Shown here one piece after another: positions 44,876 through 53,327 of a DNA stretch of 59,223 nucleotides. Position 1 is the first letter of the stretch. The number at the start of each line of letters is the position of its first letter. The stretch lies in assembly GCA_025276375.1 (NCBI GenBank), contig GCA_025276375.1_3645.1, one strand, 5' to 3'. This DNA is from a phage. Both the position numbers and the translations under genes were made by a program. Under the pieces are notes generated by a model that saw nothing but the letters and a program-made list of their open reading frames with translations, made no database searches and had not been told where the DNA came from.

Positions 44876-45712
44876 CATTGTGGCTTCATAGAGTGATCTA
44901 TGTCGAATAACCTCTTTAATTGACGGGAAAGCTAAGTTGACTTTTACACCTGAGTATGGTAAAAGCTCAATATGCTAATCCGCAGCGAAGACTAAAGGGG
45001 TGTAGTTAAAATGGCTAGAACAGCTGATTATCACGGGTATACCGTGTTTGATGATGGAACAATACCTTTATCGAAACGTGATCATACAACAATGTTTTGT
45101 TTTGATAATGGTAGAGGTTACCTTTGCGTAACCATGCTAATCGAGGGGAAGCAGTGCACAAAAGGTGTCCACCACCTGGTTGCTGAATGCTTTGTATCAA
45201 ACCCAGATCCTGAAAGGCTCACATGGGTGAACCATAAGGATGGGAATAAGTACAACAATGCATACTGGAACCTGGAATGGACCACCCCTGGTGGAAATAT
45301 CAAGCACGCCTATGATAATGACCTCAGAGTAAGGCCAGTTGGTGAGTATAATGCCAACGCTGTGCTGACAGAAGATGAGGTAATAGAGATTTGCGAACTG
45401 TTGCAGAGTGGTCTACGACAATGCGAGATTAGGGATCTTGGATATCCTTATGAGACCGTCAGGGCTATAAAGCAAAGAAGACAGTGGAAACATATCTCTA
45501 AAAACTACACCTGGTAGTAACGTTCAGAGACTATCGAAAGCATAGCTCCAACACAGGTTGGTGTGAAGAAGCGAGTAGAGTAGGCCAGCAAGTGCGGTCG
45601 AAATGGGAGGTGCCTTGGTAACAAGGCAGTGAGGTAGTCCGATCCATACAGGAAACTGTATGGCTATGCACGTAATGGTGCGGGGTAGCTTAACGACCTA
45701 CCTGAACAGATG
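44810..45712 (+). mobile_element. putative group I intron carrying an HNH homing endonuclease ORF, inserted in DNA polymerase motif C
   Basis: joining 44809 to 45713 restores '...GILMH|DEYQLQV...' (motif C HDE); intron ends in G (45712); no SD before exon 2; GC-rich structured 3' region with 'CAGAGACTATCG' (P7-like). Confidence 0.55.
45011..45517 (+). CDS. HNH homing endonuclease (I-HmuI-like)
   Basis: 'VHHLVAECFVSNPDPERLTWVNHKDGNKYNNAYWNLEWTT' HNH core; AAAGGGG SD. Confidence 0.75.
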   Translation: MARTADYHGYTVFDDGTIPLSKRDHTTMFCFDNGRGYLCVTMLIEGKQCTKGVHHLVAECFVSNPDPERLTWVNHKDGNKYNNAYWNLEWTTPGGNIKHAYDNDLRVRPVGEYNANAVLTEDEVIEICELLQSGLRQCEIRDLGYPYETVRAIKQRRQWKHISKNYTW

Positions 45713-47531: not shown

Positions 47532-47560
47532 TTGACAACAGTGATAGGGCCTAATATAAT
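47532..47560 (+). promoter_or_regulatory. consensus sigma70 promoter TTGACA-N17-TATAAT with -10 inside a perfect 8-bp inverted repeat
   Basis: -35 at 47532-47537, -10 at 47555-47560; inverted repeat ATAGGGCC (47544-47551) / GGCCCTAT (47561-47568). Confidence 0.65.
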
Positions 47561-48903: not shown

Positions 48904-49269
48904 ATGGAACAAATGAACGATCAAGCGTCGGTTGCGATGAACGAGCAAGAACAACCTCAAGAATTTTTCTTAGGGTTAAGTAAAGATCAAGTGTCTCTTC
49001 TGCTAGTGCTTTCTTCTTTCATGGGAAGACTTCAGGAGCTCACACAACAGCCAGAGGCTGAACAATTATTCCAAGCTTTGCGTGAAGAAGAAAAATATCG
49101 TCGTTTGGACTATGCCTTAGGTTGGGTAGCTCAACAACGAGATATGCTAATGGCCCTCTCTGGGACTACAAGTTTTGCAATGGGCCTGTTAGCTCAAGTT
49201 CAAGACAAATTAATTCAAGCAGGGTTTGCACACACGGCAAACACTAACGAAGAACAAGGAGATAAATAA
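48904..49269 (+). CDS. hypothetical protein (121 aa)
   Basis: GGAG SD. Confidence 0.4.
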   Translation: MEQMNDQASVAMNEQEQPQEFFLGLSKDQVSLLLVLSSFMGRLQELTQQPEAEQLFQALREEEKYRRLDYALGWVAQQRDMLMALSGTTSFAMGLLAQVQDKLIQAGFAHTANTNEEQGDK

Positions 49270-50540
49270 TGAGCGTTATTCAACAATTCGCTAACCCGAT
49301 GAATCCGCGTGAAACTGTTTTACTGGCTCACGGCATGATCAAGCGTGTTAGCATTAAACCTATTAAAGGGGCTGATCCTGCAACAGGTATTAAAACCACC
49401 GTGTGGCAAGGTAAGAAAATTGAATCCAGCCACACTATCTCTTTACTGATTTCTGAACTGGATTCCTCTGATAACCTGCTTCAAGGCGGTGAAGAAGTCT
49501 GGATCAGCATGGGTGATAAGCTGCTTAAACCGGGGCATCAAGACTCTGTCTCTGTTAAGATTGATGACAAGTGGGAAACCGTAACGCCAGGATGGATCGT
49601 AAATATTCCTTTGAAGGCAAACGAGCATAACGGTAAGACCTATTACAAAGGCTCACTGGCTAAGATGGTTAAGCTGGGTGTAGGAGAGGCTCCAGCAGCG
49701 ACTCAGCAGCAAAAACAGCAACAAGGTGCACAATCACAAGGCCAGAAGCAGAAACCTCAGCAGAATGCCAATCAGGACGTTTTACGCATCTATGGTGATG
49801 TGACTCAGATTGTTGGCAACGTGGTTACTGTCAATGACCACAAGATTGGCGAAGGTGCTATGGTTGTCACCGATGAGCAGCTTAAAGATCTGGTGGTAGG
49901 TGGTCGTGTTGCAGCCATTGTTGACAAAGACACCGGAAACATTATCAGTGGTTTCAAAGCCTATCCACCTAAGGCAGAGAACGGCACCCAAGGTTCTGGT
50001 GGCAAGCGTAAATCCTCTTACGACCCTATTGGTGTGGAGACGGGGCATAGCATCAATGCGTTGCAGATCATCCTGGATCGTGGGTTTAAGGTAGACGACC
50101 CACTAGGTGTGGCTAAAGCACTGCACGTAGTCACCATTGAGCTTAAGAAAGAGTATGCTCAAGCCACCAACCGAACTGAAGATGAAGTAGGTGCCAGTGT
50201 CGGTAATGCGGTGTTGAACGCTTGTCGCCGTATTGACAAGAAAACGAAAGTTGATGATTTTGCAGCGGCAATTACTGCAGAAGCAAAAGATGTGTTGACT
50301 AATCTGGCTGAGCCGTTGTACGATTGGATCAAGAACGGTGCTGGGTCAACTGACCATCAAGAACCTCAGGCTGCCAAACAGGAAGCAGCTCCACAGCAAA
50401 ACACTGTAGACGCTCCTCCTGTAAATGATGGGGAAGACGACCCGATGGATCAGAATCCGGCACAGTATGAGTTCTGTGATGACATACCTTTCGCTCCGGT
50501 GGGTTTGCAATATGGCAAAAGCAGAATCCACGCATTGTAA
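49269..50540 (+). CDS. putative ssDNA-binding protein (SSB-like acidic tail with DDIPF motif)
   Basis: Gln-rich linker, acidic C-terminal region containing 'DDIPF' (E. coli SSB ends DDDIPF); next to replication genes; no fold evidence. Confidence 0.35.
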
Positions 50541-51150: not shown

Positions 51151-51178
51151 GCCCTGCCCGAAAGGGTGGGGCATTTTT
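51151..51178 (+). terminator. intrinsic terminator, second copy of GCCCUGCCC-GAAA-GGGUGGGGC hairpin
   Basis: stem-loop identical to 39510-39531, followed by ATTTTTG. Confidence 0.7.
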
Positions 51179-51197: not shown

Positions 51198-51614
51198 ATG
51201 ACATTAGAAGATATCATTGTTAAACCTGAGAACTATGACCAATACAACCTGTCAACTCAATCTGTAGACCTTGGATGCGCCACGGTCAGTGCGTGGCTGG
51301 TTAACGGAAAAGAGCTAGATAAATGCTTAGAAGCTCACATGTCTATTAACAAGTTTCTGGATGAAAATACTCACTGGCTTGAGGGTGCAGGAGTATATGC
51401 TTCATGGTTGGAGAGTATGGGATTTGACTACCAATCTGAAGAAGGGTGGTGGAGCTATTTAGCTATCTGCCCCGAGACGCTGCAATGCTTCATGAAATAT
51501 TCTGAAGATTTGGAGTACCGGGCGGTGGTTGATAGTGCTATTGCCCGTTATAGCCGTAAACCTTTTTCCCACGACATTAAAACTGTGGAAGAATTTGTTG
51601 AAGTTTTCTGTTGA
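51198..51614 (+). CDS. hypothetical protein (138 aa)
   Basis: AAGGAG SD. Confidence 0.45.
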   Translation: MTLEDIIVKPENYDQYNLSTQSVDLGCATVSAWLVNGKELDKCLEAHMSINKFLDENTHWLEGAGVYASWLESMGFDYQSEEGWWSYLAICPETLQCFMKYSEDLEYRAVVDSAIARYSRKPFSHDIKTVEEFVEVFC

Positions 51615-51710
51615 CACAGGTTGAAAGGTGTGCAATTATAACTTCATATAACGGGAGGACGCGATGAACGAAGAAAACTGGGATGTATAACTAACAGGAG
51701 GCCACTGCCC

Positions 51711-51908
51711 ATGATTTATCGAATCCGTGTAAGAGAAGATGCACCAGGCTGTTACTTTGACTGGCGTGGGTGGTGGTTTCTCCACCCAATGGATGGACTC
51801 ACAGATAGAATGCTGGATGCTGCCCTTTATACAGATACCGATATAGAATATAATCTCTATCTGAAGGACGGTATAGATAACGGCCTATTTGAAGCAATTC
51901 CTGTGTAA
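51711..51908 (+). CDS. hypothetical small protein (65 aa)
   Basis: AGGAGG SD. Confidence 0.45.
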   Translation: MIYRIRVREDAPGCYFDWRGWWFLHPMDGLTDRMLDAALYTDTDIEYNLYLKDGIDNGLFEAIPV

Positions 51909-51976: not shown

Positions 51977-52402
51977 ATGATCTATGAAATGCCAAAACTG
52001 ATTCGCGACGATGCCCAAAACGCTCACACCATTATTATGGGCAAACGCATGGATATTATTTGTCATAGAGATTTCTGGGAAGGAAGTTACTTCACAGAGT
52101 ATTTTGGTAAACTGGACAATGGTCTGCTGATCCAGTTCTACACCGATGCGGAAAACAACATTCACTGGGAGTTCGAAACTGAAGATATTCATAAACTTTT
52201 CACCTTCCTCGGTATTAAGGTTGAGGCCAAGTTTGAAGAAGGCGAGTGCGACGATTGTGGATTCTACGAGGTAACAGATTTCTATCTCCCAAGTGGTGAG
52301 AACCTTTACTATGAAAGCCACTTCGGCAACTCAAATATGCCACAAGGTTGGGATGAGTTTTTTGAAATTGCGGAAGAGGAGCTGGCATACCGTGATTATT
52401 GA
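51977..52402 (+). CDS. hypothetical protein (141 aa)
   Basis: GGAG SD. Confidence 0.4.
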   Translation: MIYEMPKLIRDDAQNAHTIIMGKRMDIICHRDFWEGSYFTEYFGKLDNGLLIQFYTDAENNIHWEFETEDIHKLFTFLGIKVEAKFEEGECDDCGFYEVTDFYLPSGENLYYESHFGNSNMPQGWDEFFEIAEEELAYRDY

Positions 52403-52850
52403 TACTGTAGAGGGAGATTTAATCTCCCTTTTTAAGAGCGGTGCTGGTCACCTGATCCACGGTTGTAACTGCTTCCACACAATGGGCAAGGGGATAGCAA
52501 AACAGATTGCCCGTGAGTTCCCTCAAGCACTGGCAGCTGACAAAGAGACCAGACACGGTTGCCTAAGTAAACTGGGTGCGTTCTCCCGATGGGAGCACTT
52601 ATCTCCGAGAGGTATTGTCTACGGAATCAATCTGTATACTCAGTTCTACCCAGGACCTAATGCTGAATATTTCTCAATCCTGAAAGGCTTTGAGCTAGTC
52701 AATGAGGTATTCAGTGGATCGACTTTACCATTCTACATCCCTAAGATCGGGTGCGGCATAGGCGGTTTGAAGTGGGAGCACGTAGAGGACGTTATTAACC
52801 TTGCCACTTTTGATATGAATATTATCGTGGTGGAGTACAAAAAGTGTTGA
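52392..52850 (+). CDS. macro-domain-like protein (putative ADP-ribose binding/processing)
   Basis: 'GDLISLFKSGAGHLIHGCNCFHTMGKGIAKQIAREFP' and 'PKIGCGIGGL' match the two macro-domain glycine-rich motifs in the right order; GTG start after GAGGAG (uncertain). Confidence 0.45.
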   Translation: MIIDTVEGDLISLFKSGAGHLIHGCNCFHTMGKGIAKQIAREFPQALAADKETRHGCLSKLGAFSRWEHLSPRGIVYGINLYTQFYPGPNAEYFSILKGFELVNEVFSGSTLPFYIPKIGCGIGGLKWEHVEDVINLATFDMNIIVVEYKKC

Positions 52851-52875
52851 CAGCGGGTTTTTGAGATGGTATAGT
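52847..52875 (+). promoter_or_regulatory. sigma70-like promoter TTGACA-N17-TATAGT
   Basis: -35 at 52847-52852, -10 at 52870-52875. Confidence 0.6.
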
Positions 52876-52903: not shown

Positions 52904-53074
52904 ATGGAGACTAAAATCTTAATTCTGGCTGTGATAGATACAACCGAAGGGGCTGTGTTCGAATCTGCAGGAGGGTATTTCTACCTACCCTACGGAAAAA
53001 GAACTGCTGAACCAGGTAAAGATTCAATCATCAAAGTGTTCCCGTGTGCTTTCTGGCTGGAGATTTTGGTATAA
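52904..53074 (+). CDS. small ORF (56 aa), not in supplied ORF track
   Basis: hand-translated METKILILAVIDTTEGAVFE...; GAGAGGGAG SD; directly downstream of promoter 52847. Confidence 0.35.
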   Translation: METKILILAVIDTTEGAVFESAGGYFYLPYGKRTAEPGKDSIIKVFPCAFWLEILV

Positions 53075-53100
53075 GATTGCAGAGGATTTGGGAGAGAATT

Positions 53101-53295
53101 ATGAGAAACAAGAGAGAGCTTTACTCTGGCGAGTGGATAAACGATCAACAGGTTGGAGAGGTAACCTGCTTCCGGTGTTTTACTCGGTACAATCTTAAAA
53201 CTGCACCAAAAAGTGTTCCAAAGACTGATGGTTATTACATAAAAGAGCCTCATTGCCCGAAATGTAAATGCCGAGTATACTGGAGTAACCTGTAA
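53101..53295 (+). CDS. small zinc-ribbon protein (64 aa)
   Basis: ATG 53101 after GGAGAG; 'CFRC...CPKCKC'. Confidence 0.4.
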   Translation: MRNKRELYSGEWINDQQVGEVTCFRCFTRYNLKTAPKSVPKTDGYYIKEPHCPKCKCRVYWSNL

Positions 53296-53299
53296 AAGA

Positions 53300-53327
53300 T
53301 TGACATCTGAAAACTACAGTGTATAAT
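53300..53327 (+). promoter_or_regulatory. sigma70-like promoter TTGACA-N16-TATAAT
   Basis: -35 at 53300-53305, -10 at 53322-53327. Confidence 0.6.

What the first reader, a model, noticed from the sequence alone, without database searches (positions are those of the whole stretch)
52392..52850. Macro-domain-like protein in the early region: candidate counter-defense against ADP-ribosylation
The two glycine-rich macro-domain motifs ('HGCNCFHTMGKGIA' and 'IGCGIGGL') occur in canonical order and spacing. Macro domains remove or bind ADP-ribose, so a phage copy could reverse ADP-ribosylation by host systems such as DarT-like toxins. This is motif-level inference; the start codon (GTG 52392) is uncertain.
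Basis: inference. Interest (0 to 1): 0.6.

Follow-up and report, generated by a model that had tools for sequence, protein, structure and literature searches.

The report
Phage macrodomain, likely anti-DarT enzyme
This early gene of an rV5-like E. coli phage encodes a genuine stand-alone macrodomain, a homologue of T4 Tk.4 (AdfM), which lets T4 escape the DNA-ADP-ribosylating DarTG2 defence; it is therefore a credible but already-anticipated counter-defence gene.

Summary

The window is a Vequintavirus, 99.9% identical to phage JES2013, where the gene is already annotated "macro domain protein" or "phosphatase". It is 39% identical over its full length to T4 Tk.4 and 69% identical to the RB49-like Tk.4. 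A 2025 preprint showed that T4 tk.4 (adfM) is required to resist DarTG2.

Three refinements:
- It is not a DarG. It lacks the C-terminal domain and a darT neighbour, and the catalytic Lys is replaced by a nearly invariant Gln (Q84), as in SCO6735, which hydrolyses thymidine-linked ADP-ribose on DNA.
- The same family also contains Adpp, a phage ADPR-1''-phosphate phosphatase that works with NARP1 against aRES. This phage lineage has no detectable NARP1/NARP2 genes, so that role is less likely.
- No activity was tested here.

Verdict: a new member of a known kind, of modest interest.

The parts
52392..52850 (+). Macrodomain gene, a Tk.4/AdfM-like orphan ADP-ribosyl hydrolase of 152 aa with a GTG start and TGA stop
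52376..52381 (+). Shine-Dalgarno-like GAGGAG, 10 nt upstream of the GTG start
   Evidence: Read directly from the sequence. The start position is confirmed by ATG at the homologous position in kvi and RB3.
52458..52499 (+). ADP-ribose-binding loop 1, 'HGCNCFHTMGKGIA' (residues 23-36). It contains H23 and N26.
   Evidence: N26 is present in 225 of 226 family members, H23 in 219, G24 in 223, G34 in 225 and A36 in 223. N26 aligns with DarG N22, PhiKZ AdfM N23 and SCO6735 N27. H23 aligns with Poa1p H23 and Adpp H24.
52641..52643 (+). Codon of Gln84 in 'NLYTQ', at the position of the catalytic Lys of DarG (K80) and TARG1 (K84) and of the essential Gln85 of SCO6735
   Evidence: Profile alignments and the MAFFT alignment. 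Q is present in 224 of 226 family members. The SCO6735 Q85A mutant is inactive (PMC9411070).
52746..52769 (+). ADP-ribose (diphosphate)-binding loop 2, 'IGCGIGGL' (residues 119-126)
   Evidence: G120 is present in 225 of 226 members, G122 in 223 and G125 in 219. The loop aligns with 'IGCGLAGG' of BT1257 and SCO6735 and 'LGVGNGGL' of DarG.
51611..51639 (+). Sigma-70-like promoter (TTGACA-17-AATTAT with an extended -10 TG). It is the likely start of the early transcription unit ORF 51711-51908, ORF 51977-52402, then the macro gene.
   Evidence: Promoter scan. A terminator-like hairpin at 51151-51172 closes the preceding unit. Function is inferred, not shown.
51977..52402 (+). Upstream 141-aa ORF of unknown function. 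Its TGA stop overlaps the macro start (GTGATTATTGA), which suggests translational coupling.
   Evidence: PHROG 8157, function unknown. Only 4 protein clusters were found. No confident fold match. It is not homologous to vs, the gene upstream of tk.4 in T-even phages.
52847..52875 (+). Strong sigma-70-like promoter (TTGACA-17-TATAGT with TG) that overlaps the macro stop codon and starts the next early unit
   Evidence: 11 of 12 matches.

Best explanation
The gene encodes a stand-alone ('orphan antitoxin-like') macrodomain ADP-ribosyl glycohydrolase, the Vequintavirus counterpart of T-even Tk.4/AdfM.

Proposed mechanism:
- Host RNA polymerase transcribes it early from sigma-70 promoters.
- When the host DarT2 toxin (DarTG2 system) ADP-ribosylates thymidines in TNTC motifs of single-stranded phage DNA and blocks replication, the enzyme binds the ADP-ribose in the pocket formed by loop 1 (H23-G-C-N26...G-K-G-I-A) and loop 2 (I-G-C-G-I-G-G).
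- It then hydrolyses the ribose-thymine bond and restores replicable DNA.
- Chemically it should work like SCO6735 rather than DarG. Gln84, held in place by Asn26, orients the distal ribose for attack by an activated water. There is no catalytic lysine.

What is shown: the macrodomain identity, the ALC1-like/TARG1-DarG class fold, the active-site residues, the homology to Tk.4, and early-type promoters.

What is inferred: the substrate (thymidine-linked ADPr-DNA), the anti-DarTG2 phenotype in this phage, and the water-mediated mechanism.
For: Fold and family:
- Pfam Macro above the curated cut-off.
- AF2 pLDDT 96.5.
- Foldseek top hits are TARG1, Poa1p, DarG, BT1257 and SCO6735.
- The NCBIfam DarG model (E 1.6e-12) and the PADLOC DarG model (E 1.1e-13) match over the macro part.

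Homology to a tested protein:
- T4 Tk.4 is 39% identical, E 4e-40, over the full length.
- RB3 Tk.4 is 42% identical.
- The RB49-like Tk.4, sitting in the syntenic vs-tk.4 slot, is 69% identical.
- That RB49-like protein groups with the window protein at 100% bootstrap.
- T4 tk.4 is the single HIDEN-SEQ hit on a DarTG2 host, and its knockout is DarTG2-sensitive.
- T4 lacking adfA and adfN remains DarTG2-resistant.

Active site:
- N26 is in 225 of 226 members, Q84 in 224 and H23 in 219.
- Q84 aligns with DarG K80, TARG1 K84 and the Gln of BT1257. PMC9411070 equates SCO6735 Q85 with those lysines.
- SCO6735 hydrolyses dT-ADPr DNA and protects against DarT. Its Q85A and N27S mutants lose activity (PMC9411070).

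Context:
- The gene lies in an early block rich in sigma-70 promoters.
- It is retained in 115 of 119 matching Vequintavirus records and is under purifying selection.
- T4 tk.4 is dispensable in the laboratory, as expected for an accessory counter-defence gene.
- No NARP1/NARP2 genes were found, which would be needed for the rival Adpp role.
Against: - No experiment on this protein or on any Vequintavirus homologue was found. The HIDEN-SEQ study built a Bas54 (Vequintavirinae) library, but I found no report that it was challenged with DarTG2.
- The T4 evidence is genetic and from a preprint. De-ADP-ribosylation of DNA by Tk.4 itself has not been shown biochemically.
- In my NJ tree the link between the window clade and T4-type Tk.4 has only 37% bootstrap.
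- NARP1-linked Adpp proteins are only slightly more distant (35-36% against 39-42% identity) and share H23, N26 and Q84. Sequence alone therefore cannot separate the two activities.
- The biochemically validated phage AdfM (PhiKZ gp104) is a Lys-type enzyme and only 23% identical.
Confidence: 0.6

Rival explanations
1. It is an Adpp-type ADP-ribose-1''-phosphate phosphatase. It would convert the ADPR-1''-P produced by RES-domain NADases (the aRES defence) into ADPR, either to feed NAD+ reconstitution or to detoxify the metabolite. It could do this alone or in addition to DNA de-ADP-ribosylation (a bifunctional enzyme).
For: - The NARP1-associated Macro proteins of Osterman et al. 2026 (bioRxiv 10.64898/2026.01.28.702374) belong to the same sequence family. 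Gary Adpp is 35% identical (69 bits), PAK_P1 35% and phiAbaA1 36%.
- Gary Adpp dephosphorylates ADPR-1P in vitro. An H24A mutant was built, and the paper reports that mutations in Adpp abolish anti-aRES activity.
- The window protein keeps the equivalent H23 and the same N and Q residues.
- Poa1p is among the top structural matches.
- T4 Tk.4 and PHROG 335 have long been annotated as 'A1pp phosphatase'.
Against: - Adpp gives protection only together with Adps and Namat.
- tblastn with Adps and Namat from two phages, and with KVP40 Nampt and Nmnat, finds nothing at E<=1 in the window or in the complete genome of a 95%-identical relative.
- No such genes are annotated in that relative.
- No Escherichia, Salmonella or Klebsiella phage appears in the paper's list of NARP1-linked Macro genes.
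- The window protein is closer to Tk.4 proteins than to any NARP1-linked protein.
Confidence: 0.15
2. It acts on another ADP-ribose conjugate. Candidates are: de-ADP-ribosylation of proteins or RNA modified by other host ARTs (for example CmdT-type mRNA ARTs); deacetylation of O-acetyl-ADP-ribose made by the phage's own Sir2-like protein; or hydrolysis or sequestration of ADPR-derived immune signals.
For: - TARG1/OARD1 is the best Foldseek match (E 5.4e-10, TM 0.78-0.85), and that enzyme acts on protein-Glu-ADPr and on OAADPr.
- One GenBank record names the gene 'O-acetyl-ADP-ribose deacetylase'.
- A Sir2-like gene is annotated elsewhere in a closely related genome (PQ014731 113338-114099).
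Against: - TARG1's catalytic dyad is absent. K84 is Gln, and D125 aligns with a Gly of loop 2.
- T4, which carries Tk.4, is still strongly restricted by the mRNA ADP-ribosyltransferase system CmdTAC.
- The Sir2-like gene is about 50 kb away in another transcription unit, and nothing found here links Tk.4 homologues to Sir2 genes.
- No Alt/Mod-type ART is annotated in the vequintavirus genome.
- No experimental support was found for any family member.
Confidence: 0.12
3. It is a catalytically inactive ADP-ribose 'reader' or sponge, or a stoichiometric DarT binder, rather than a hydrolase.
For: - The catalytic Lys of DarG and TARG1 is missing.
- Catalytically dead SCO6735 (Q85A), DarG (K80A) and TARG1 (K84A) still inhibit DarT by interaction (PMC9411070).
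Against: - The Gln that replaces Lys is itself essential for hydrolysis in SCO6735 and is nearly invariant in the family (224 of 226), as is N26 (225 of 226).
- An Adpp homologue with the same residues is an active enzyme.
- Such strict conservation of active-site residues fits catalysis.
Confidence: 0.05

Closest known systems
T4 Tk.4 = AdfM (anti-DarT factor Macrodomain; HIDEN-SEQ preprint, bioRxiv 10.1101/2025.11.20.689424) and its RB49-like (Krischvirus) orthologue
   Same: - Stand-alone macrodomain of about 150 aa, alignable end to end (39% identity to T4, 42% to RB3, 69% to kvi).
- Shared signature motifs HGCNCFHTMG, NLYTQxxPGPN and IP(K/R)IG(C/A)GI(G/A).
- Early or accessory gene.
- Start codon overlaps the stop codon of the upstream gene in T4-type phages as well.
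   Different: - Different phage lineage (Vequintavirinae against Straboviridae).
- Different neighbours: there is no vs or tk, and the flanks are not homologous.
- The anti-DarTG2 phenotype has been shown only for T4.
- Grouping with T4-type Tk.4 is weakly supported (37% bootstrap), whereas grouping with RB49-like Tk.4 is solid (100%).
SCO6735 (Streptomyces coelicolor) and BT1257, the Gln-type ALC1-like macrodomains
   Same: - Gln at the DarG K80 / TARG1 K84 position, together with the Asn and His of loop 1.
- SCO6735 hydrolyses thymidine-linked ADPr on DNA and protects against DarT.
   Different: - Only 21-26% identity.
- These are cellular proteins.
- They have a longer mobile loop after the Gln (12-13 residues against 7).
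DarG antitoxin of DarTG2 (Thermus aquaticus, M. tuberculosis) and PhiKZ gp104 AdfM
   Same: - Conserved Asn (N22/N23 aligns with N26).
- Proposed same substrate, dT-ADPr on ssDNA.
- PhiKZ gp104 shows that a phage orphan macrodomain can neutralise DarT2 (PMC13309987).
   Different: - Those enzymes have a catalytic Lys (K80/K78). Here the residue is Gln.
- DarG has a C-terminal DarT-binding domain and sits next to darT. Both are absent here: NCBIfam gives 47 bits against a 250-bit cut-off, and only positions 3-139 of 338 are matched.
- PhiKZ gp104 is only 23% identical and groups with DarG at 100% bootstrap, away from the Tk.4 family.
Adpp (NARP1-AP ADPR-1''-phosphate phosphatase, Vibrio phage Gary gp137) and yeast Poa1p
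   Same: - Same sequence family (35% identity).
- Same His, Asn and Gln residues.
   Different: - Adpp genes lie within two genes of Adps and Namat. This phage lineage has neither gene.
- The loop after the Gln differs in sequence: (F/Y)xPGPN here and in Tk.4, against YHW.../YNYG... in NARP1-linked proteins.

Membership tests
Macro domain superfamily (Pfam PF01661) | Match to the curated profile above its gathering score | tested here: met
   28.3 bits against a cut-off of 22, E 1.9e-6. The profile built from 51 homologues hits PDB macrodomains down to E 2e-17.
Macro domain superfamily (Pfam PF01661) | Three-layer alpha/beta/alpha macro fold | tested here: met
   [not shown]
Macro domain superfamily (Pfam PF01661) | Two Gly-rich ADP-ribose-binding loops in canonical order | tested here: met
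   Residues 23-36 and 119-126. G24, N26, G34, A36, G120, G122 and G125 are each present in 219-225 of 226 members. Ligand binding itself was not tested.
ALC1-like / TARG1-DarG-Poa1p-SCO6735 class of macrodomains | Closest structural and sequence neighbours belong to this class rather than to the MacroD, PARG or viral X-domain classes | tested here: met
   [not shown]
DarG antitoxin (NCBIfam NF048014; DarTG2 toxin-antitoxin) | Full-length match including the C-terminal DarT-binding domain | tested here: not met
   47.4 bits against a cut-off of 250. Only profile positions 3-139 of 338 are matched, and the protein is 152 aa. PADLOC DarG matches positions 4-141 of 329.
DarG antitoxin (NCBIfam NF048014; DarTG2 toxin-antitoxin) | Adjacent darT toxin gene | tested here: not met
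   The neighbours are small phage ORFs of unknown function (PHROGs 9903, 8157, 15268, 4864). They have no Pfam hit, apart from a phage zinc-binding domain (PF23903) on 53044-53292.
DarG antitoxin (NCBIfam NF048014; DarTG2 toxin-antitoxin) | Catalytic lysine (Taq/Mtb K80) after the conserved Thr | tested here: not met
   'NFPTK' of DarG aligns with 'NLYTQ'. The residue is Gln84, present in 224 of 226 family members.
AdfM, T4 Tk.4 type (anti-DarTG2 orphan macrodomain) | Full-length homology to T4 Tk.4 with shared signature motifs | tested here: met
   39% identity, E 4e-40, residues 1-150 against 1-152. The motifs HGCNCFHTMG and NLYTQFxPGPN are shared.
AdfM, T4 Tk.4 type (anti-DarTG2 orphan macrodomain) | Phylogenetic grouping with Tk.4 proteins to the exclusion of NARP1-linked Adpp proteins | tested here: inconclusive
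   The clade with the syntenic RB49-like Tk.4 has 100% bootstrap. Its union with T4-type Tk.4 has only 37%, and the deep nodes are unresolved (NJ, 148 columns).
AdfM, T4 Tk.4 type (anti-DarTG2 orphan macrodomain) | Required for phage growth on DarTG2 hosts, and removes ADPr from DarT2-modified DNA | not testable with these tools
   Genetic evidence exists only for T4. Biochemical evidence exists only for the distantly related PhiKZ gp104 and for SCO6735.
Adpp (NARP1-AP ADPR-1''-P phosphatase) | Encoded in or next to a NARP1 operon (Adps + Namat) | tested here: not met
   tblastn with Adps and Namat (Gary, SPbetaL1) and with KVP40 Nampt and Nmnat finds nothing at E<=1 in the window or in the whole related genome PQ014731. 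Annotation shows none either.
Adpp (NARP1-AP ADPR-1''-P phosphatase) | Conserved loop-1 histidine (Gary H24; Poa1p H23) | tested here: met
   H23 aligns with it. The residue is also present in Tk.4, SCO6735, BT1257 and TARG1, so it does not discriminate between the families.
SCO6735-type (Gln) DNA ADP-ribosyl hydrolases | Gln at the K80/K84 position, positioned by the loop-1 Asn | tested here: met
   Q84 and N26 align with Q85 and N27. Activity was not tested.

The most novel reading that the evidence does not exclude
The large phage 'Tk.4/Adpp' macrodomain family has 4,472 clusters at 50% identity and an almost invariant His-Asn-Gln active site. It may be a single bifunctional enzyme class whose one pocket both removes ADP-ribose from DarT2-modified thymidines in DNA and dephosphorylates ADPR-1''-phosphate made by RES NADases. 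One small early gene would then blunt two mechanistically unrelated NAD+-consuming defences, DarTG2 and aRES. The biological read-out would depend only on which partners (such as NARP1) the phage carries. The Vequintavirus copy, which has no NARP1, would be a natural test case.
Probability: 0.2. Interest if true: 0.6.

Novelty: new member of a known kind. Interest (0 to 1): 0.3.

Why it matters
Vequintaviruses (rV5-like phages) are used for E. coli O157 typing and biocontrol, and most of their roughly 220 genes have no known function. Assigning this early gene to the Tk.4/AdfM family predicts that these phages are intrinsically resistant to DarTG2, and it names the gene to delete to test that.

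The comparison also yields two points of wider use. First, the T4-type AdfM family uses a Gln active site like SCO6735, not the Lys of DarG, so the two proteins currently called 'AdfM' (T4 Tk.4 and PhiKZ gp104) are different lineages with probably different chemistry. Second, the same family includes the recently described Adpp phosphatase, so annotation pipelines that label all members 'phosphatase' or 'anti-DarT' will be wrong for part of the family until substrate specificity is mapped.

Tried and rejected
- DarG membership: rejected. There is no C-terminal domain and no darT neighbour, and Lys is replaced by Gln.
- A vs-tk.4 module transferred as a block: rejected. The upstream ORF 51977-52402 and the downstream ORF 52904-53074 show no similarity to the genes flanking tk.4 in kvi or RB3, so only the macro gene is shared.
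- Upstream, translationally coupled ORF as a functional partner: nothing learned. It has no Pfam hit, only four clusters, a mediocre model (pLDDT 73.5, with only one of five models above 55) and no fold match with E<=0.001 or TM>0.3.
- A NADAR (AdfN-like) gene nearby: none was detected among the 20 ORFs scanned with Pfam between 45 and 58.5 kb. This was not an exhaustive scan of the window.
- Loop length after Gln84 as a discriminator between Tk.4-type and Adpp-type proteins: rejected as unreliable. The Vibrio and Acinetobacter NARP1-linked proteins have 14 residues, but the Pseudomonas ones align with 7, like Tk.4. Only the loop sequence (xPGPN) tracks the Tk.4 group.
It was repeated without that row.
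- One paper reading failed because a search term was too short.
- The 2026 Migulavirinae preprint and the CmdTAC paper were checked for phage macrodomain counter-defence. The former concerns only the ThsA macro effector. The latter shows only that Tk.4-bearing T4 is still restricted.
Full report
**1. What is there**

Window 52392-52850 (+) is an open reading frame of 152 codons, from GTG at 52392 to TGA at 52848-52850. The longer ORF that the mechanical list gives from GTG 52293 is not the gene, for four reasons.
- The preceding ORF runs to 52402, so 52392 sits in a start/stop overlap (GTGATTATTGA).
- The RB49-like phage kvi and the T4-like phage RB3 have ATG at exactly the homologous position.
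- All 50 aligned homologues start in the same column, most with MI(I/V).
- A GAGGAG Shine-Dalgarno-like sequence lies 10 nt upstream.

Against the 90%-identical copy in phage HMD-6, dN/dS is 0.21, and 21 of 36 differences are at third codon positions. This is an expressed protein-coding gene under purifying selection.

**2. It is a macrodomain of the TARG1/DarG/Poa1p/SCO6735 class**

- Pfam Macro is matched above the curated threshold: 28.3 bits against 22.
- PHROG 335 ('phosphatase') matches at E 4.8e-59.
- The DarG models of NCBIfam and PADLOC match at E 1.6e-12 and 1.1e-13, but only over their macro part.
- With an alignment of 50 homologues, AlphaFold2 gives pLDDT 96.5 and pTM 0.90.
- Foldseek against the PDB ranks TARG1, Poa1p, Taq and Mtb DarG, BT1257 and SCO6735 first.

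**3. Where the window comes from, and the gene's context**

The region is 99.9% identical to Escherichia phage JES2013 and to E. coli O157 typing phage 4 (genus Vequintavirus). Of 119 phage records that match, 115 cover at least 80% of the 1.5-kb query. In those records the gene is already annotated as 'macro domain protein', 'phosphatase', 'O-acetyl-ADP-ribose deacetylase' or 'hypothetical protein'.

The gene lies in a run of small + strand ORFs of unknown function. Near-consensus sigma-70 promoters punctuate this run. The window has 14 sites with at least 11 of 12 matches, against 1.7 in shuffles, and eight of them are on the + strand between 46.3 and 59.2 kb.

The likely transcription unit is as follows.
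- A promoter at 51611-51639, preceded by a terminator-like hairpin at 51151-51172.
- ORF 51711-51908.
- ORF 51977-52402.
- The macro gene.

The next strong promoter (52847-52875) overlaps the macro stop codon. 'Early region' is thus supported, although by consensus matches only.

**4. The closest characterised relative**

tblastn finds homologues in 2,723 phage records. In T-even phages the homologue is tk.4, next to vs.
- T4 Tk.4 is 39% identical over the whole length, E 4e-40.
- RB3 Tk.4 is 42% identical.
- The Krischvirus (RB49-like) Tk.4, in the same syntenic slot, is 69% identical.

A 2025 preprint (bioRxiv 10.1101/2025.11.20.689424) reports that tk.4 is the single T4 gene whose transposon insertions are depleted on a DarTG2 host. 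It also reports that a clean knockout becomes DarTG2-sensitive. The authors named the gene adfM. The gene is otherwise dispensable: 45 of 46 TA sites are hit. This fits earlier work showing that T4 lacking adfA and adfN is still DarTG2-resistant (PMC11825919).

**5. How it probably works: not like DarG**

In profile and multiple alignments, 'NLYTQ' of the window protein aligns with 'NFPTK' of DarG, 'MFPTK' of PhiKZ gp104 and 'LITK' of TARG1. The catalytic lysine (K80/K78/K84) is therefore replaced by Gln84. TARG1's partner Asp125 aligns with a glycine of loop 2.

BT1257 and SCO6735 carry Gln at the same place. For SCO6735, PMC9411070 shows four things.
- It hydrolyses thymidine-linked ADP-ribose on DNA.
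- It protects against DarT in vivo.
- It loses activity in Q85A, Q85E and N27S mutants.
- It probably uses a water activated through backbone contacts, with Gln orienting the distal ribose.

Among 226 family members, Q84 is present in 224, N26 in 225, H23 in 219 and the loop glycines in 219-225. I therefore propose a SCO6735-like, lysine-independent hydrolysis of dT-ADPr on phage ssDNA. This step is inferred, not shown.

It also follows that the two proteins now named AdfM are different lineages. PhiKZ gp104 was validated biochemically, with N23 and K78 as its putative active-site residues (PMC13309987). It is only 23% identical to the window protein and groups with DarG at 100% bootstrap.

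**6. A real rival inside the same family**

A 2026 preprint (bioRxiv 10.64898/2026.01.28.702374) shows that Macro proteins encoded in NARP1 operons (Adpp; Vibrio phage Gary gp137) dephosphorylate ADPR-1''-phosphate. That molecule is the product of the RES-domain defence aRES, and removing the phosphate lets NARP1 rebuild NAD+. An H24A mutant of Adpp was built, and the paper reports that mutations in Adpp abolish the anti-aRES effect.

The sequences in its Table S1 clearly belong to the Tk.4 family (for example 'AHQCNCF...MGRGIA...NVYGQ...IGCGLAGGDW'). They share His, Asn and Gln with the window protein and are 32-36% identical to it.

My NJ tree (148 columns, 100 bootstraps) gives the following.
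- The window protein joins Bas59 and the RB49-like Tk.4 at 100%.
- That clade joins T4-type Tk.4 at only 37%.
- The deep order relative to the NARP1-linked clades is unresolved.

Sequence alone therefore cannot decide between the two activities, and one pocket may even perform both. Context argues against the Adpp role here.
- Adpp protects only together with Adps and Namat.
- tblastn with Adps and Namat of two phages, and with the NARP2 enzymes of KVP40, finds nothing at E<=1 in the window or in the complete genome of a relative that is 95% identical over 19 kb.
- No such genes are annotated in that relative.
- No enterobacterial phage appears in the NARP1-linked list.

**7. Other alternatives**

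- TARG1-like protein de-ADP-ribosylation lacks the Lys/Asp dyad.
- Reversal of mRNA ADP-ribosylation is unlikely, because Tk.4-bearing T4 is still strongly restricted by CmdTAC.
- A link to the phage's Sir2-like gene (O-acetyl-ADP-ribose turnover) has no support beyond co-occurrence in one genome, about 50 kb away.
- A purely non-catalytic reader is hard to reconcile with the near-invariant catalytic-type residues.

**8. Membership and novelty**

- The protein is a member of the macrodomain superfamily and of the ALC1-like class. All features tested were met.
- It is not a DarG. Three defining features were tested and not met.
- It is best filed as a Vequintavirus member of the Tk.4/AdfM family. 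The homology and motif tests were met, phylogenetic exclusivity was inconclusive, and the phenotype is untestable here.

The family is very large: 4,472 clusters at 50% identity with E<=1e-3, and 1,331 with E<=1e-10. The gene is already annotated as a macrodomain in GenBank, and the counter-defence idea is already published for T4. This is therefore a new member of a known kind.

What the analysis adds is the Gln-type active site, the separation of the two 'AdfM' lineages, the overlap with Adpp, and the evidence for exchange of this single gene between Krischvirus-like and rV5-like phages (69% identity with non-homologous flanks).

**9. Confidence**

| Claim | Confidence |
|---|---|
| Macrodomain identity | about 0.99 |
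| Enzymatic counter-defence against an NAD+-consuming host system | about 0.8 |
| Specifically anti-DarT2 DNA de-ADP-ribosylation | about 0.6 |
| Interest | 0.3 |

The interest score is modest. The finding is correct and useful for annotation, but it would not surprise a specialist. The one open and testable question is the substrate range of the Gln-type phage macrodomains.

Noticed in passing
L004 (Escherichia phage kvi, MN850615) 1501-1956 compared with window 52392-52850: The Krischvirus (RB49-like) tk.4 product is 69% identical to the Vequintavirus protein, much closer than T4's own Tk.4 (39%). The first 18 nt after the start codon are identical, yet the flanking genes are unrelated. This suggests lateral exchange of this single gene between Straboviridae and Vequintavirinae.
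   Followed up: partly
window 51977-52402 (+): A 141-aa ORF whose stop overlaps the macro start (possible translational coupling). Only four protein clusters were found, all close relatives (68-98% identical). It has no Pfam hit, a mediocre AF2 model and no PDB fold match.
   Followed up: yes
protein P0017 (metagenome contig, 121 aa): One database protein is a chimera. It is 98% identical to the C-terminal part of the upstream ORF and 83% identical to the C-terminal half of the macro protein. It probably reflects a frameshift, deletion or assembly artefact in that contig.
   Followed up: no
window 53300-53327 (+) and 47532-47560 (+): Two perfect 12/12 sigma-70 consensus promoters (TTGACA-16/17-TATAAT). 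In all, 14 sites with at least 11 of 12 matches occur in the window, against 1.7 in shuffles, mostly on the + strand between 46 and 59 kb. This fits a host-polymerase-dependent early region made of many short transcription units.
   Followed up: partly
window 50425/50548-51135 (+): An endonuclease VII / homing-endonuclease-like ORF (PHROG 1035, E 7e-38). It overlaps the end of the 423-aa ORF 49269-50540 and is followed by a strong terminator-like hairpin at 51151-51172. An HNH-like ORF lies at 45011-45517. Both are probable mobile insertions in the early region.
   Followed up: no
GenBank MG0656xx 'Campylobacter phage' records (hits H9-H15, H23, H24): Sixteen unannotated records labelled Campylobacter phage (host C. 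jejuni) are 96-98% identical in DNA to this E. coli Vequintavirus region. They look mislabelled or contaminated rather than genuine Campylobacter phages.
   Followed up: no
PQ014731.1 113338-114099 (L007 18338-19099), outside the window: A closely related vequintavirus encodes a Sir2-like protein next to a nucleotide pyrophosphohydrolase and RNA ligase genes. This is another NAD+/ADP-ribose-related function in the same genome, and its relation to the macrodomain is unknown.
   Followed up: no
window 53044-53295 (+): A small ORF with a phage zinc-binding domain (PF23903, E 1.6e-22), two genes downstream of the macro gene. Annotated records start it further in (about residue 20).
   Followed up: no
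literature: The name AdfM has been given independently to two non-orthologous phage macrodomains: T4 Tk.4 (Gln-type) and PhiKZ gp104 (Lys-type, DarG-like). This is a nomenclature clash that will confuse annotation.
   Followed up: yes
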